Source: a virus (lineage: Duplodnaviria; Caudoviricetes). Taken from it: a stretch of 64,000 nucleotides of DNA. Positions 1,748 through 29,195 of the stretch are shown here, piece by piece. Position 1 is the first letter of the stretch, and the number at the start of each line of letters is the position of its first letter. The notes under the pieces are model-generated. The model saw only the letters and a program-made list of their open reading frames with translations. It was not told the DNA's origin and ran no database searches. The translations under genes were made by a program, and so were the position numbers. The DNA lies in IMG/VR virus record IMGVR_UViG_3300020048_003360, positions 32,001 through 96,000 of that record. One strand, 5' to 3'.

Positions 1748-3232
1748 TTACTTATCGCCCTTGGTGTAGGTAGCGAGTGATTTAGATGAAACCATACAGA
1801 TTGCATTGATTTCAGTGATGGCGTACTTGAAGAAAGACATGGTAGGACTAGATGCCCACTTAGCAAATGACGTGTTGGTGTTGATCATGGCGCGGTAAGC
1901 AGGAACTGAAGCTTGCTCGGCCTTGCCTTCATGATCATCTTTATCAACAGACCTATCCTTAATCTTATTCATGGCAGATTCAGCTTTATCAGCAGCTTTC
2001 TTAAGCTTTTCTTTAGTAGAGGTAATTTTATTAAAATTAGAACTACGTTTGAACTCTTCTAGAACATCGAGTAGTTTTAGCATCTTACCACACATGTCTT
2101 CGATATCGCTAGCATCAAAAGCTTTAATTTCAAAGCTATCTTTTAAAGTACCAGGATTGGTCTTAACATCAGTTAGTCTGATTTCAAAATTAGCTTTTGT
2201 ACTTACACCACCTACATGAACAATACCACCAGCACTCGCTAATACAGTAGTGGTGGTGTCTTCAATATTTTTCTTAGCACGATATTCTAACACAACACTA
2301 CCTAACATATCGTTACCAAGTTTTGTAGTGTAGCCAGTAATACGACCATCGACAGAGGTACTAGGACCACCATCACTCAGTTTAGCATCTTCTAATACTT
2401 TAGTCATTTTGGTAACTGCTGGGCCTGGTGCAGATGGTTCAAAATCAGCAATAGCTCCAGCCATATCTTCACCTAGCTTAACTAGCTTGGTAGCATATGT
2501 TTTATAAACCCACTTAGCTTGAGTACTAATTTCTTCAATACCAGCTGACAAAGCACTGGCAGTCGTTACTGGCTGATAGTTTTTAGACAGAGCACCGACA
2601 GAACTACTAATAGTAATTTTTTCTTTACCTGGACGCTTACCATCGGACTGTAGTTCATCAGCACGTTTCTTAATGGCCTCTACTTTACGACGAAGCATAG
2701 GAATGGTACCAAAGATCTTGTAGAAGAACTTTTCGATTTTAGCCCAGATATCTTTTAGGAATTTCTTAATGGCTTCCCAGATATTACGAGCGGTTTCACG
2801 AATACCTTCAGTAGCGATGCGATGACCGATATAGCGAGATTCGGTAACAACATTACCAGCTTCACCAGAAACTTCAATCTGAAGAGGAACAACAGTTTCA
2901 GGAATAATTTCTTCAGACTCAACATCAGTACCAGCAACAGCCATGTCGGCAACAGTACGGATTAGAGCAACTTCTTCAGGAGAAGCTTCATCAATACCGT
3001 CAGCAACAACAGCTAGATCTTCTAGAGAATCGGAGATCTGTTCCATACGGAAACATTCCATGATGGCCTCAGGAACTTCAACAGCTAGTTCATCAGCTTC
3101 AGCTAGATTAGCAACACCAGCGTCGTCAGCAGCAGCTACTGCATCTGGGTTAGTTTCGTCAACGGGAGTGCCATCTTCTTCCATAGCATAAGAACCGTAG
3201 CCACTCTGTGCAACATTCATAAATTTACGCAT
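1748..3232 (-). CDS. Internal head/ejection protein, phiKZ gp93-97-like family
   Basis: 494 aa; acidic propeptide with A/S-x-E sites (AMEE, SLED, ATEG) followed by amphipathic helix GIRETARNIWEAIKKFLKDIW. Confidence 0.75.
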   Translation of the reverse strand: MRKFMNVAQSGYGSYAMEEDGTPVDETNPDAVAAADDAGVANLAEADELAVEVPEAIMECFRMEQISDSLEDLAVVADGIDEASPEEVALIRTVADMAVAGTDVESEEIIPETVVPLQIEVSGEAGNVVTESRYIGHRIATEGIRETARNIWEAIKKFLKDIWAKIEKFFYKIFGTIPMLRRKVEAIKKRADELQSDGKRPGKEKITISSSVGALSKNYQPVTTASALSAGIEEISTQAKWVYKTYATKLVKLGEDMAGAIADFEPSAPGPAVTKMTKVLEDAKLSDGGPSTSVDGRITGYTTKLGNDMLGSVVLEYRAKKNIEDTTTTVLASAGGIVHVGGVSTKANFEIRLTDVKTNPGTLKDSFEIKAFDASDIEDMCGKMLKLLDVLEEFKRSSNFNKITSTKEKLKKAADKAESAMNKIKDRSVDKDDHEGKAEQASVPAYRAMINTNTSFAKWASSPTMSFFKYAITEINAICMVSSKSLATYTKGDK

Positions 3233-3269
3233 TTTGAATTACCTTTTCAATATATTGAATTGTTTGTTT

Positions 3270-3303
3270 ATACAGTCTACTAAATCGATTTAGTAGACTG
3301 TAT
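3270..3303. terminator. Intergenic hairpin
   Basis: TACAGTCTACTAAAT-CG-ATTTAGTAGACTGTA near-perfect palindrome followed by TATGCCG. Confidence 0.7.
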
Positions 3304-3313
3304 GCCGAGTAGA

Positions 3314-4651
3314 TTACTCGTAGTGCTTAAGGGATTGCTCACAATATGATAGAGCAGCTTGACCAGTCTTCAAAGGATAGGTACTAGCACTAACGAAAGT
3401 GTTCAATACGAAGCCTTTAATGTTATCAAGAGCACTACGGGCAAATTTACCATGATCTTTTTCAGCCTGATCTTTGGTAGCGTCGGCACTTTCAGCATCT
3501 ACAGTATTGTCGGCGTTCTTAGCCATCTTTTCAGCGGCGCTAACAACTTTTTTAAGAAGCTGATCTAGCTTATCTTGAGTTTTCTTAAAGTCAACTAAGA
3601 TTTCAGCAATCTTACCAACCGCCTCAGCAGTACTTTCAACTTCATCTACAGTAAGTGTAGTGAGAGATTCTTTAGTTGGCTTTTTACCGCCATCAGCCAT
3701 AAAGCCTCTCTTTACTTTGCCAAAAGCACTTAGTTGTTCAAGACCGGTAGTTCCAGACTTCGTTGGTAGACGCTCAGCCCATACAAATCCACCCAATAGT
3801 GATTCAGTAGATTCCCACACCATATCGCCACCATCTACATTAGTCTTACTAAATTCATCAGATGGTTTTTTAATAGTAGTAACCATTTTAGCTACAACAC
3901 CAATAGAGTTATTATCACCTGGGGTCTCCACAGCAGTAATAATCTGCTCACCTTGAGCTACCATTTCATTAGCTTTTGTATCTAAGATAATCTTAGCAAT
4001 ACCTTCAATAGCTGTAAGACTAGTCTTAAGTTTGGCAGCCGATACTTCATTACCAACATAAAGACTCTTAACTAGACCGGCATTATCAAAAGTTTTGTCT
4101 TTCACTTTCTTAGAACGATAATCGTCAGCAGATTTTGCAATTGCTTCAGCACGCTTCTTCATTGACTCAGCAGCACCAAACAGCTTACGTAGGTGTCCAG
4201 TAGCCCAAGCAATAATCTTCTTATAGGCTTTTACGATATATTCCCAAAGCTCTTTAGCCTTTTCTTTGATGCCTTCCATAGCTAACTGAGTGGCACCAAT
4301 ACGAGTAGAAGAACCACCAAAGGACTCTAGACTGGGCATGGCTTTAGCACGTAGACCAACTCGATCATACATGTACTGGGTAGCAATACCAACTACTTGA
4401 GCTGAATATTTATCCATACCACCGTTTTTAGCGGAGATAGCTAGGGCGTCGGAGATGGATTCTAGGGCTTCAACAACCTCAACACCTTCATTAATGTCGG
4501 CAGCAATGTCATCGCCATCAACAGTGCTTTCCGTAACTTCAGCTTCAGCTTCAGCAGCTTCTACGGAAGCAGGTGCAGTGGTTTCGGCAACAACTTCGGA
4601 ACTACCTTCTTCTTCTAGTGACACTACGCCACGATTACTATATCTACGCAT
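3314..4651 (-). CDS. Internal head/ejection protein, gp93-97-like family
   Basis: Start moved to MRRYSN (4651; AAGGA RBS upstream); SLE/ALE/AME sites; AMEGIKEKAKELWEYIVK helix; paralogous to 1748..3232. Confidence 0.75.
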   Translation of the reverse strand: MRRYSNRGVVSLEEEGSSEVVAETTAPASVEAAEAEAEVTESTVDGDDIAADINEGVEVVEALESISDALAISAKNGGMDKYSAQVVGIATQYMYDRVGLRAKAMPSLESFGGSSTRIGATQLAMEGIKEKAKELWEYIVKAYKKIIAWATGHLRKLFGAAESMKKRAEAIAKSADDYRSKKVKDKTFDNAGLVKSLYVGNEVSAAKLKTSLTAIEGIAKIILDTKANEMVAQGEQIITAVETPGDNNSIGVVAKMVTTIKKPSDEFSKTNVDGGDMVWESTESLLGGFVWAERLPTKSGTTGLEQLSAFGKVKRGFMADGGKKPTKESLTTLTVDEVESTAEAVGKIAEILVDFKKTQDKLDQLLKKVVSAAEKMAKNADNTVDAESADATKDQAEKDHGKFARSALDNIKGFVLNTFVSASTYPLKTGQAALSYCEQSLKHYE

Positions 4652-26313: not shown

Positions 26314-27099
26314 ATGACTATGAAATCCGCTGCACGACTAGCTAGAGATCAAGAAGAAAAGAACTTAAAGAAAGGTACGAATAGTGAAAATATTACTTTT
26401 AAGAAACACCCAATGCCAGCAGTAAATAAATTTGCTAATACAAAAAATCATTTAAAAGATAATGCATGTTGGGATGAACTGAATTCAATGTATAGCAGTA
26501 TGTGTCAATTACTGGGTAGTCACTCCGCATTAAGTGAGTTTGCTAAAGACCCAATCTTAACTAGTGCTGTTGTGGATAAAGAACTAATGATAACTAATCT
26601 CAATATTCTAGCTAGAGATCTTCAGAATATGAGTACTGAGCTATCTGAAATTAGTGCTTTACATAGGAATAGAACTGGTGGTACGCGTGATCCAGATCAA
26701 TTAATGAAGACTATTTCTATTTTTGAAATGTATAATCTATTTATGGAAAGGCACGATGCTGTTGTTATGCCTACTGCATATGATTTAGTAGGTCAATTTA
26801 ACGAAGCAGAGCAACTTCTATTAAAGGCACAAAAAGCTAAAGAAGGTTTAACTGATCCTAATGTAATTAGTGATGTTGAAATTATTAATATTAGGACTGG
26901 AGAAACTGGTGAAGCTATGACTCCTATTGAAGGTGAGGTTCTTACAGCACGTCAATCGGAACCACTAGATTTTGAAAAACTAAAGAATTCATTTATGGAG
27001 CTACATCCAGAATTATCCGATATAGATCAGGATATTGATATTGTGACCAATCGAATAAGTGAAAAATCATTACCCAATATTGATGAGGTAACTAAGTAA
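26314..27099 (+). CDS. Conserved phiKZ-like hypothetical protein
   Basis: 261 aa; AGGA RBS; TAATG coupling to the next gene. Confidence 0.65.
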   Translation: MTMKSAARLARDQEEKNLKKGTNSENITFKKHPMPAVNKFANTKNHLKDNACWDELNSMYSSMCQLLGSHSALSEFAKDPILTSAVVDKELMITNLNILARDLQNMSTELSEISALHRNRTGGTRDPDQLMKTISIFEMYNLFMERHDAVVMPTAYDLVGQFNEAEQLLLKAQKAKEGLTDPNVISDVEIINIRTGETGEAMTPIEGEVLTARQSEPLDFEKLKNSFMELHPELSDIDQDIDIVTNRISEKSLPNIDEVTK

Positions 27100-28718
27100 T
27101 GGCTAATATTGAAAAAAGTATTCTACCTAATGAAGAAGCATTAGATAATGTATTGGAAAATACTGGCGCATTAGATGAGATCACATTGCCCACTGCTGAA
27201 GAAGATTTAGTAGTAGATAGTATTCCTGATAATAGCAATACTGGTGTTTTAGATGAAATTGTAGTGCCGGAGTCCAGTGATAAAGAATTATCTAGTGATA
27301 ATGGTACAGAAAAACCAAGAGTAGTTATTAATAGAACACCAGCAAAAAATGTAATTCAAGAGTCTGAAGTATTTGCTCCATTAGATGATCCCAAAGATGC
27401 TGACGGTATTGCCTTATCGTTACCATCAGATACTCAAGCTAATATCAACACTCTATTAGAAGGTATGCCTAATATTGATATTAAGGAAACCCCTAATGGA
27501 TCTGAATGGATTGAGCGTATTAAAGCTGCTAAATACACACGTCCATTTGGTGAGTGGTTTGACGATACTGTAGAACGCGCTGACTCTATGTTTAAGCAAT
27601 CAGTACAGTCAGAAAAGGGTAAGTTGACTGCTGGTGGTTTAAAGTTTAACGATGGTATGGGTACTAAACTAACTGGTGAAAGAGCTGTATTGCGTGTGCG
27701 GGCTCTTACAGGCCTCGGTAGTGTGGTGATGGTACCACTCTGGCACTCTGGTTTTTGGATCACTCTAAAGGCCCCTACAGAGTCTGCTATGTTGGAGTTA
27801 AATCGTAGACTATCTGAAGAAAAAATTGAATTGGGTAGAGCTACATATGGTCTAGCTTTTTCTAACAATTCAGTTTTCTTTGCTGGATGGTTAATTGACT
27901 TTGCTTTGAGCCATGTTTATGATACTAGTTTAAAAGCTGATGTATCTGAAGATATTCGTAGCAGAATTAGTCAATTAGACGTACCTCTACTAATCTGGGG
28001 TTTAGCTTGTGCCATCTGGCCAAATGGTTTTCCATATGCTAGAGCTGTTATGGATCAGAGTACTGAACAAACTAAAATCATTAAAGAAAAAGTAAATGTA
28101 GGTAGATTGCTGTGGGTAGATAATTTATCTTTAACTCCATGGCAAATTTCACATATGGCGCAGAGACATGGTAACAGCATGACTGCTGAAACACTGGATC
28201 GCTATAAGAGTGAATTTACAAGAGGTAAAGGTAGGGTAGTAAAGTTAAATGACTCTATCTCTATCACACTACGTGTACCTAATATAGATCAGTATATTAC
28301 GTCTGGTCAAAAATGGGTAAATAACATTGTGGCTATGGTGGATAAAGCCTTCAATATGTCGGCAAATGATGGAGTTAGAGATAGCTACATTATGGATCAA
28401 GGTAAAGCTACAAACTTACGACAATTTGCACACTTTGTAGAATCACTAGAAGTAGCGGATGGCGTAATTGATGATGTCGATACCCTAGATCAGACATTTG
28501 ATGCTCTTAGTAGTAGTAATGAAATTCGTACTGCTTTCTTTAAAGGTATTAAAGAATTTATTGAAGATGCTACTATAGCGGTAATTGCTATTCCAGTAAC
28601 TGAAGATGCTGAAAAATCTGATTTGCCTAGATTTCCACATCTACTACCATTGGATGTGATGTCAGTTTTTTTTATCCAAGTAACCACAACAGTATATCTA
28701 ATTCAAGCTCGGAATTAG
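27099..28718 (+). CDS. Conserved structural/assembly protein (possible baseplate-hub or tail assembly chaperone)
   Basis: 539 aa; acidic N-terminus; T8 run near the 3' end. Confidence 0.55.
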   Translation: MANIEKSILPNEEALDNVLENTGALDEITLPTAEEDLVVDSIPDNSNTGVLDEIVVPESSDKELSSDNGTEKPRVVINRTPAKNVIQESEVFAPLDDPKDADGIALSLPSDTQANINTLLEGMPNIDIKETPNGSEWIERIKAAKYTRPFGEWFDDTVERADSMFKQSVQSEKGKLTAGGLKFNDGMGTKLTGERAVLRVRALTGLGSVVMVPLWHSGFWITLKAPTESAMLELNRRLSEEKIELGRATYGLAFSNNSVFFAGWLIDFALSHVYDTSLKADVSEDIRSRISQLDVPLLIWGLACAIWPNGFPYARAVMDQSTEQTKIIKEKVNVGRLLWVDNLSLTPWQISHMAQRHGNSMTAETLDRYKSEFTRGKGRVVKLNDSISITLRVPNIDQYITSGQKWVNNIVAMVDKAFNMSANDGVRDSYIMDQGKATNLRQFAHFVESLEVADGVIDDVDTLDQTFDALSSSNEIRTAFFKGIKEFIEDATIAVIAIPVTEDAEKSDLPRFPHLLPLDVMSVFFIQVTTTVYLIQARN

Positions 28719-28738
28719 ATAATCCTGAAGCTCATGTA

Positions 28739-29143
28739 GTGCATCCTAGTTTTGGTGAAACAGTAGAATGTAGTGCCGCTATAGAGGATCTTTTAAATAA
28801 AGTTCCTATACTGTGCTCTACAGATACACAACTATTACTAATGGATAAGTATGATTTCATATATGGAATATGTAATCATGATTTAGTAGAAGCTAGTAGG
28901 CCGCTTTCTATTATAGCGCTACATCCAGCTGAAAATACTGATGCTGGTAGTACCATTTACGAGAGAATTGATCAGTTTGCCACTTTACAGGTAGGTAAGT
29001 ACTTTAATCTATCTTTAACTGAATTCCTAGAATATCCAAGAGATATTGTAATACATATTTTAGAGATTGCATCAAAAATGCAAGAAAAAGGAATTTCAGA
29101 TCAAAGTGGCATCTTAGACGAGCTTACAGGTAATAGTAAGTAA
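28739..29143 (+). CDS. Small assembly-chaperone-like ORF, possibly expressed by -1 frameshift
   Basis: No ATG or clear RBS at the called GTG; frame is open from 28631; YFNLSLTEFLEYPRD motif. Confidence 0.55.
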   Translation: MHPSFGETVECSAAIEDLLNKVPILCSTDTQLLLMDKYDFIYGICNHDLVEASRPLSIIALHPAENTDAGSTIYERIDQFATLQVGKYFNLSLTEFLEYPRDIVIHILEIASKMQEKGISDQSGILDELTGNSK

Positions 29144-29144
29144 A

Positions 29145-29195
29145 TCATATACCCCACACCTAAACTCATATAGAGAATAGGTGTGGGGTATATGA
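29145..29195. terminator. Hairpin between convergent genes
   Basis: TCATATACCCCACACCTA...TAGGTGTGGGGTATATGA. Confidence 0.75.

What the first reader, a model, noticed from the sequence alone, without database searches (positions are those of the whole stretch)
28631..29143. Candidate -1 programmed frameshift making a long/short assembly-chaperone pair
Seen: GTT TTT TTT ATC (T8 at 28666-28673) lies 15 codons before the stop of 27099..28718. The -1 frame is open from 28631 through the slippery site into the 134-aa ORF (FYPSNHNSISNSSSELDNPEAHVVHPSFG...), has no ATG before ~28841, and has no convincing RBS at the called GTG. Known: lambda G/GT and P2 E/E' tail chaperones use -1 slippage, at a T-run in P2. 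The motif YFNLSLTEFLEYPRDIV resembles GT-type and T4 gp51-type chaperone ends. Inference: a ~680-aa fusion is made at low frequency. I do not recall this being described for phiKZ-like phages.
Basis: partly seen in the sequence, partly recalled or inferred. Interest (0 to 1): 0.68.

Follow-up and report, generated by a model that had tools for sequence, protein, structure and literature searches.

The report
Conserved -1 frameshift in jumbo-phage gene
A gene shared by phiKZ-like giant phages ends at a run of T's where the reading frame very probably slips back one base, so one gene makes a 539-residue and a 681-residue protein. Genome records list two separate genes, and I found no paper describing this.

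Summary
T8 (28666-28673) encodes the invariant Phe-Phe 14 residues before the end of the 539-aa ORF (a phiKZ gp77 homologue). The -1 frame runs open from there to 29143.

- **Conservation:** in all 80 distinct related loci (23-61% protein identity), a T5-T9 run sits at the same Phe-Phe and the -1 frame stays open for 151-193 codons.
- **Codon choice:** TTT is kept at the site even in G+C-rich genomes that use TTC elsewhere.
- **No own start:** in 65 of 78 loci there is no ATG, GTG or TTG before a conserved HVxxPxFG motif of the -1 domain.
- **No in-frame fusion** was found among the homologues I could inspect.

The best reading is a programmed -1 ribosomal frameshift (tRNA-Phe slippage on U UUU UUY) giving a short and a ~681-aa long form. 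Slippage by the RNA polymerase cannot be excluded, because the tool for sequencing reads was closed.

The upstream protein is a distant relative of the T4 gp26 baseplate-hub assembly protein (hhalign 69%, BFVD fold matches).

This scan had already reported the same recoding in at least eight other jumbo-phage genomes. I rate it a new member of a known kind.

The parts
26314..27099 (+). Upstream gene of the same operon (261 aa, phiKZ gp78 position). Its stop overlaps the next start in TAATG.
   Evidence: ORF list; overlap sequence. A same-strand ORF of 107-308 aa ends just before the gp77-like gene in 68 distinct related loci. It shows no likeness to T4 gp51.
27099..28718 (+). Frame-0 ORF, the short form: 539 aa, a phiKZ gp77 homologue. 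The core (aa 130-539) is a remote T4 gp26-like fold and the N-terminal ~130 aa vary.
   Evidence: tblastn finds it in 220 phage records including PHIKZ077. phrog_4585 E 8e-102. AF2 pLDDT 89.5, pTM 0.89. BFVD matches to T4-like baseplate hub proteins. hhalign against the gp26 family 69%, E 4.4e-5.
28667..28673 (+). Slippery heptamer T TTT TTT within T8 (28666-28673). The frame-0 codons TTT TTT encode Phe524-Phe525.
   Evidence: The same site is T TTT TTT in 47, T TTT TTC in 16, G TTT TTT in 9 and other T5 forms in 8 of 80 distinct loci. Five T's are the only invariant bases in a 31-sequence DNA alignment.
28674..28718 (+). Frame-0 tail (IQVTTTVYLIQARN plus stop), made only in the short form. 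It completes a confident C-terminal helix.
   Evidence: Model helix 391-408, pLDDT about 92. The tail consensus FFTLLxQxxxxIxxR is conserved. The frame-0 stop lies 9-38 codons (median 15) after the site in all loci.
28673..29143 (+). -1 frame extension: 156 codons plus TAA. It has a ~20-aa variable linker and then a conserved all-alpha domain. The long form is 27099..28673 joined to 28673..29143, 681 aa.
   Evidence: Translation. Alignment of 78 -1-frame products. AF2 pLDDT 86.5. 1848 clusters match its profile in 1.84 billion proteins, and the best 150 have 104-186 aa with called starts scattered over profile positions 1-52.
28733..28756 (+). Conserved motif HVVHPSFG of the extension. It starts upstream of the only start-like codon (GTG 28739).
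   Evidence: In 65 of 78 loci no ATG, GTG or TTG lies between the T-run and this motif.

Best explanation
This is a programmed -1 ribosomal frameshift. Most ribosomes translating the gp77-like gene read GTT TTT TTT ATC in frame and stop 14 codons later, giving the 539-aa short form. A fraction slips back one base while tRNA-Phe sits on the U-run (U UUU UUU; P-site, or P- and A-site, re-pairing). Those ribosomes read UAU (Tyr) next and continue for 156 codons, giving a 681-aa long form. In the long form the last 14 residues, the end of a C-terminal helix, are replaced by a ~20-aa linker and a ~135-aa all-alpha domain. Shown here: the site, the open frame, their conservation, the codon bias, and the lack of independent starts. 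Inferred: that the shift is ribosomal, that both forms are needed, and that the protein acts in baseplate-hub or tail assembly, like its distant relative T4 gp26. The fraction that shifts is unknown.
For: (1) In 80 of 80 distinct loci, a T5-T9 run covers the conserved Phe-Phe and the -1 frame is open for 151-193 codons. The +1 frame closes after a median of 14.5 codons. The -1 frame opens a median of 14 codons before the run, and as little as 1. (2) In 34 loci with G+C of 0.5 or more, Phe codons elsewhere in the gene are 73 TTT against 404 TTC; at the site they are 57 TTT against 8 TTC, and in the per-locus list TTC stands only as the second Phe codon, the wobble position of the heptamer. (3) Given the frame-0 protein and each gene's codon usage, only about 40 of 80 overlap regions would be stop-free in the -1 frame; all 80 are. 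(4) In 65 of 78 loci there is no ATG, GTG or TTG between the run and the conserved HVxxPxFG motif, and only 2 of 78 have a start with a Shine-Dalgarno-like motif. First starts lie 71-137 codons downstream in L017, L018, L052-55 and phiKZ. (5) The four longest of the 120 homologues listed are longer at the N-terminus and still stop after the FF tail. No longer protein carries the extension domain. So both frames are kept, as expected if two products are needed. (6) 63 of 80 sites are canonical X XXY YYZ heptamers in phase. From my own knowledge, there are precedents at similar U-rich sites: P2 E/E+E' (T6G) and T7 gene 10 (G GUU UUC).
Against: No product was observed, because I had no reads, Ribo-seq or peptides. 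No conserved stimulator was found: the downstream folds have a mean z of -0.36, the window's own hairpin has z -0.77, and RNAalifold predicts 0 pairs in 31 sequences. I saw no Shine-Dalgarno-like motif upstream when reading the printed sequences, but did not scan for one. The phase argument is weak, because the Phe-Phe is conserved as protein (T4 gp26 has it too), so it does not separate ribosomal from polymerase slippage. The link to baseplate assembly is remote. PF12322 scores below its cut-off and is absent at E<=1 in five other genomes. In addition, the Churi homologue of phiKZ gp077 was detected by mass spectrometry at 15 min after infection, which is early for a tail assembly factor (PMC11849849).
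Confidence: 0.68

Rival explanations
1. Programmed transcriptional slippage. The phage (or host) RNA polymerase stutters on the A-run of the template and adds one U (or drops two) in a share of mRNAs. Normal translation of those mRNAs then gives the same long form.
For: Runs of T7-T9 occur in 57 of 80 loci, a length at which polymerases are known to slip (my own knowledge: Thermus dnaX, IS elements). No RNA stimulator for ribosomal shifting was found. The run is unstable in practice: the RTH11 record has T7 where its relatives have T8, and its annotated CDS runs on in a third frame. These phages use unusual multisubunit polymerases whose slippage behaviour I do not know.
Against: 23 of 80 loci have only T5 or T6, which is short for efficient polymerase slippage. 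When the run is short, what is kept is an in-phase T TTY that suits tRNA-Phe re-pairing.
Confidence: 0.2
2. These are two separate genes. The downstream domain is started on its own, at a rare start codon or by termination-reinitiation after the frame-0 stop, and no fusion is made.
For: Public records annotate it so. A few loci do have a plausible start, for example RP31, where ATG overlaps the stop in TGATG. In the window, GTG 28739 lies 21 nt after the frame-0 stop.
Against: 65 of 78 loci have no ATG, GTG or TTG before the conserved motif, and 76 of 78 have none with a Shine-Dalgarno-like motif. This reading does not explain the TTT bias at the site, the stop-free overlap in 80 of 80 loci, or why the -1 frame opens right at the run (a -1-frame stop lies one codon before it in four loci, for example TAA directly before the T-run in L033). 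Called N-termini are scattered over profile positions 1-52.
Confidence: 0.07
3. This is a homopolymer sequencing error or a decaying gene: the true gene is a single 680-aa ORF, or the downstream part is dead.
For: Homopolymers are error-prone, and one record (RTH11) does seem to carry such an error.
Against: The same frame relation holds in 80 independent assemblies and in cultured phages from many laboratories. The frame-0 tail is conserved and modelled as a confident helix. The extension domain is conserved across 1848 clusters.
Confidence: 0.02

Closest known systems
Lambda G/GT and P2 E/E+E' tail assembly chaperones (conserved -1 frameshift of long-tailed phages; my own knowledge, Levin 1993, Christie 2002, Xu 2004)
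   Same: A -1 shift near the 3' end of a morphogenesis-type gene gives a short and a C-terminally extended form. The arrangement is conserved where the sequence is not, and P2 also uses a T-run. Like gp26 and G/GT, the phiKZ-type protein is classed as non-virion (PMC11849849).
   Different: The protein family differs: no member matched a Pfam tail-chaperone family. The short form has 539 aa rather than ~130-150. I saw no tape-measure gene beside it.
Phage T7 gene 10A/10B (-1 shift at G GUU UUC; my own knowledge, Condron 1991)
   Same: tRNA-Phe slips on a U-run close to the end of the ORF. The G GTT TTT and G TTT TTC variants seen here resemble the T7 site.
   Different: T7 adds a short tail to a capsid protein. 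Here a folded ~135-aa domain is added to a non-virion protein.
E. coli dnaX tau/gamma
   Same: One gene gives two essential isoforms that differ at the C-terminus through a -1 shift on a homopolymeric heptamer.
   Different: In dnaX the shifted product is the shorter one, and strong stimulators flank the site (an upstream Shine-Dalgarno-like element and a downstream hairpin). No conserved downstream RNA structure was found here, and I saw no Shine-Dalgarno-like element upstream by eye.
T4 gp26 / gp26' baseplate hub assembly protein (PF12322)
   Same: There is remote homology over the C-terminal ~230 residues, including IAIP-CPxC...FFxLL at the very end, and fold matches in BFVD. T4 gene 26 also gives two nested products, 26 and 26'.
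   Different: T4 makes its second product by internal initiation, not by frameshift. T4 encodes the FF as TTC TTT, stops three codons later, and gene 25 follows with its own ATG. The phiKZ-type protein is more than twice as long.

Membership tests
Programmed -1 ribosomal frameshift site | Slippery X XXY YYZ heptamer in phase with the upstream frame | tested here: met
   T TTT TTT at 28667-28673. 63 of 80 loci are canonical, and the rest keep an in-phase T TTY.
Programmed -1 ribosomal frameshift site | -1 ORF open across the site, without its own start, and conserved in orthologues | tested here: met
Programmed -1 ribosomal frameshift site | Stimulatory element (upstream Shine-Dalgarno-like element or downstream structure). 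It is common but not obligatory. | tested here: not met
   Mean z -0.36, window hairpin z -0.77, 0 consensus pairs. The upstream Shine-Dalgarno-like element was only looked for by eye.
Programmed -1 ribosomal frameshift site | Shifted protein product observed | not testable with these tools
Lambda G/GT-type tail assembly chaperone | Gene lies directly upstream of the tape measure gene | tested here: not met
   The neighbours are the gp78-like gene and a convergent 120-aa gene. I saw no tape-measure gene beside it in phiKZ, FLC9, RP31 or LucasX.
Lambda G/GT-type tail assembly chaperone | Match to a tail assembly chaperone family | tested here: not met
   No such Pfam or PHROG match. There is only a feature-search lead at score 0.84, rank 51.
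T4 gp26 family (PF12322 T4_baseplate) | Score above the Pfam gathering cut-off | tested here: not met
   16.3 bits against 24.5. 2 of 78 members match, best E 3.8e-5. No match in five other genomes.
T4 gp26 family (PF12322 T4_baseplate) | Profile-profile and fold similarity | tested here: met
   hhalign 69%, E 4.4e-5, 143 columns. BFVD Foldseek E 1e-4 to 1e-3 to 'baseplate hub' proteins, TM by target about 0.5.
T4 gp26 family (PF12322 T4_baseplate) | Role in hub assembly; neighbours are gp51 and gp25 homologues | tested here: not met
   The role was not tested. Neighbours: gp78-like against gp51, 0.16%; the extension against gp25, 0.6%.
   hhalign 0.15%.

The most novel reading that the evidence does not exclude
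The shift is made by the phage's own non-canonical multisubunit RNA polymerase stuttering on the run. That would be a programmed transcriptional slippage conserved across a whole virus family. The long form would then be the jumbo-phage counterpart of GT, linking a gp26-like hub chaperone to a second partner during baseplate assembly.
Probability: 0.15. Interest if true: 0.78.

Novelty: new member of a known kind. Interest (0 to 1): 0.6.

Why it matters
If it is true, every phiKZ-like (nucleus-forming and related) jumbo phage makes a ~680-aa protein that no genome record I opened lists. The small downstream 'genes', PHIKZ076.4 among them, would be truncated pieces of it. That changes the core proteome used in comparative, Tn-seq and proteomic studies of these phages.

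It also gives a clean natural case of U-run frameshifting with no detected stimulator, kept across very divergent genomes. And it ties a recoding event to the poorly understood gp26-type hub assembly proteins of contractile-tail phages.

Tried and rejected
- **Near-identical DNA:** megablast against the phage collection found nothing.
- **Solved structures, by sequence:** no match for either part.
- **Fold searches:** Foldseek against PDB found nothing for either model. For the extension, VIA-align gave only long-helix matches of Z 5.3 or less, and the Atlas search gave TM 0.36 or less.
- **Complex prediction** of the core with the extension domain gave no verdict (score 0.00). This is not evidence either way.
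- **T4 comparisons:** hhalign of the extension against T4 gp51, gp26 and gp25, and of the gp78-like family against gp51, all gave under 1%.
- **PF12322** was not found in five other phiKZ-like genomes.
- **In-frame fusions:** the search for longer proteins carrying the extension found none. The four longest homologues listed are extended at the N-terminus only.
- **Literature:** ten searches found no description of this frameshift. The 'gp77' hits concern other phages' genes.
- **RNA stimulator:** none is conserved.
- **Goslar lead:** I did not verify that it is the homologue.

Full report
**Observation.** Bases 28665-28676 read GTT TTT TTT ATC, with T8 at 28666-28673. The 539-aa ORF 27099..28718 ends 14 residues after Phe524-Phe525. 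The -1 frame is open from 28631, just after a TAG, to the TAA at 29141-29143. In that frame the first start-like codon is GTG 28739, with no Shine-Dalgarno-like motif in the 20 bases before it, and the first ATG is at 28841. A shift at the run would give 525 + 156 = 681 residues.

**What the genes are.** The upstream protein is the homologue of phiKZ gp77. tblastn finds it in 220 phage records, all phiKZ-like jumbo phages of Pseudomonas, Erwinia, Ralstonia, Xanthomonas, Salmonella, Vibrio and others. The -1 frame product is also conserved and always lies directly downstream. Public records annotate the two parts as separate hypothetical genes, with downstream starts that differ from record to record. 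In phiKZ, PHIKZ076.4 is only the last 80 codons of a 166-codon -1 frame that begins at the T-run of gene 77.

**Comparative test.** I fetched 80 IMG/VR loci with a profile of five homologues and added four GenBank loci.
- **Frames.** In every locus with a complete gene end (84 loci, 80 distinct) a T5-T9 run covers the conserved Phe-Phe: 40 loci have T7, 16 T6, 14 T8, 7 T5 and 3 T9. The frame-0 stop follows 9-38 codons later (median 15). The -1 frame is open for 151-193 codons. The +1 frame closes after a median of 14.5 codons. Upstream of the run, the -1 frame is open for a median of only 14 codons, and for a single codon in four loci. From random codons inside the same genes, a -1 frame of 150 or more codons occurs in 1% of trials.
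- **Codon choice.** In the 34 loci with G+C of 0.5 or more, Phe is TTT 73 times and TTC 404 times elsewhere in the gene, but TTT 57 times and TTC 8 times at the site. In the per-locus list TTC stands only as the second Phe codon, the wobble position of the heptamer.
- **Overlap region.** If synonymous codons are redrawn from each gene's own usage, about 40 of 80 overlap regions would stay stop-free in the -1 frame. All 80 do.
- **DNA conservation.** In a 31-sequence DNA alignment, the only invariant bases are five T's of the run.
- These loci are related, so the counts are not independent events. But protein identity falls to 23%, where synonymous sites are saturated.

**Fusion or separate gene.** The 78 distinct -1 products align over their whole length. 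They share HVxxPxFG about 15-36 residues after the run, then L..AY...GI..H, PL.LV..H..ED and S..EFL.LP. In 65 of 78 loci no ATG, GTG or TTG lies between the run and the first motif, and only 2 of 78 have a start with a Shine-Dalgarno-like motif. In several loci the first possible start is 71-137 codons into the domain. A profile search of 1.84 billion proteins finds 1848 clusters. The best 150 have 104-186 aa, and their called N-termini are scattered over profile positions 1-52, as expected when gene callers must guess a start that does not exist.

No natural in-frame fusion turned up. The four longest of the 120 homologues listed (602-735 aa) are extended at the N-terminus and still end with the FF tail, and no longer protein carries the extension. 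So the short frame-0 end and the out-of-frame extension are both maintained. This pattern is typical of recoding that makes two needed products. It also argues against a sequencing error. The one odd record, Xanthomonas phage RTH11, has T7 where relatives such as LucasX have T8, and its annotated CDS runs on in a third frame, which looks like a homopolymer error or variant.

**Mechanism.** 63 of 80 sites are canonical X XXY YYZ heptamers in phase (T TTT TTT in 47, T TTT TTC in 16). The rest are G TTT TTT, G TTT TTC, G GTT TTT and A CTT TTT, and all keep an in-phase T TTY on which tRNA-Phe can re-pair. I found no conserved stimulator. Seventy-base downstream folds average z -0.36, the window's own A/U-rich 10-bp hairpin 21 nt downstream has z -0.77, and RNAalifold predicts no pairs. 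I favour ribosomal slippage because a quarter of the loci have only T5 or T6. But the Phe-Phe is conserved as protein, so phase says little, and polymerase slippage on T7-T9 stays open.

**Function.** The core (aa 130-539) folds with confidence (pLDDT 89.5, pTM 0.89). The Phe-Phe sits inside a final helix that the frame-0 tail completes, so the long form loses the end of that helix and continues with Tyr-Pro and a linker.
- **Fold and profile.** Nothing in the PDB matches. In BFVD, after its own family, the model matches T4-like 'baseplate hub assembly protein' and 'baseplate hub subunit' entries at E 1e-4 to 1e-3. Pfam PF12322 (T4_baseplate) scores 16.3 bits for the window, below the 24.5-bit cut-off, and reaches 3.8e-5 in one member; PHROG 150 'baseplate hub' scores 4e-4. 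A profile of 11 gp26 homologues aligns to the family profile with 69% probability, E 4.4e-5, over 143 columns, ending in IAIP-CPxC...FFxLL on both sides.
- **T4 comparison.** T4 gp26 stops three residues after its FF, encodes it as TTC TTT, and is followed by gene 25 with its own ATG. So the Phe-Phe is probably older than the slippery site. Leiman et al. 2010 list gp26 as a hub assembly chaperone (PMC3004832).
- **Evidence against a late tail role.** PF12322 finds nothing in five other phiKZ-like genomes. In Churi, the gp077 homologue was detected with 12 peptides at 15 min after infection among proteins classed as non-virion (PMC11849849).
- **The extension.** It is all-alpha with a long last helix (pLDDT 86.5). 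It has no match in Pfam, PDB or the Atlas, and no likeness to T4 gp51, gp26 or gp25. A complex prediction of core plus extension gave no verdict.

**Known or new.** Ten full-text searches found no description of a frameshift in this gene, and no record I opened annotates a join. Within this scan the same recoding had already been reported on at least eight other jumbo-phage genomes, with the same reading. I saw those notes only after my own tests.

The mechanism is of a known kind (G/GT, P2 E/E+E', T7 10A/10B, dnaX) but sits in a gene family where it has not been described. I therefore rate it a new member of a known kind, of solid interest for phage annotation and recoding. My confidence is about 0.9 that a recoded fusion is made (0.68 ribosomal plus 0.20 transcriptional).

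Noticed in passing
L004:2967-3470 (phiKZ, NC_004629 reverse strand): PHIKZ076.4 (annotated 3228-3470) is the tail end of a 166-codon -1 frame that starts at the T7 run of gene 77. The conserved HILHPNFG motif lies upstream of its annotated ATG.
   Followed up: yes
L094:1732-1738 (Xanthomonas phage RTH11, OQ790161): The run is T7 where relatives such as LucasX have T8. As a result the annotated 628-aa CDS runs on in a third frame with a junk tail. This is probably a homopolymer error or a length variant.
   Followed up: partly
window 29149-29160 / 29180-29191: A perfect 12-bp inverted repeat (ATACCCCACACC / GGTGTGGGGTAT) sits just after the extension's stop, between convergent genes. It is probably a transcription stop, although the simple terminator scan did not call it.
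   Followed up: partly
window 26314-27099 and the same position in 68 loci: A gp78-like gene of 107-308 aa precedes the gp77-like gene on the same strand in 68 distinct loci. Its family is very divergent (mean column identity 11%) and shows no likeness to T4 gp51.
   Followed up: partly
L075, L077, L079, L095 (the group of Salmonella phage SPLA10): In this group the frame-0 tail after the Phe-Phe is at least 38 codons long instead of about 15, so the dual-coding overlap is more than twice as long.
   Followed up: no
P0009, P0013, P0062, P0113: Close relatives carry long, unrelated N-terminal extensions (up to 735 aa in total). The region before about residue 130 is highly variable in the whole family.
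   Followed up: no
L086:3803-4429 (T4 genes 26 and 26'): T4 gene 26 also gives two nested products, 26 and an internally started 26'. That parallels the two forms proposed here but uses a different mechanism.
   Followed up: no
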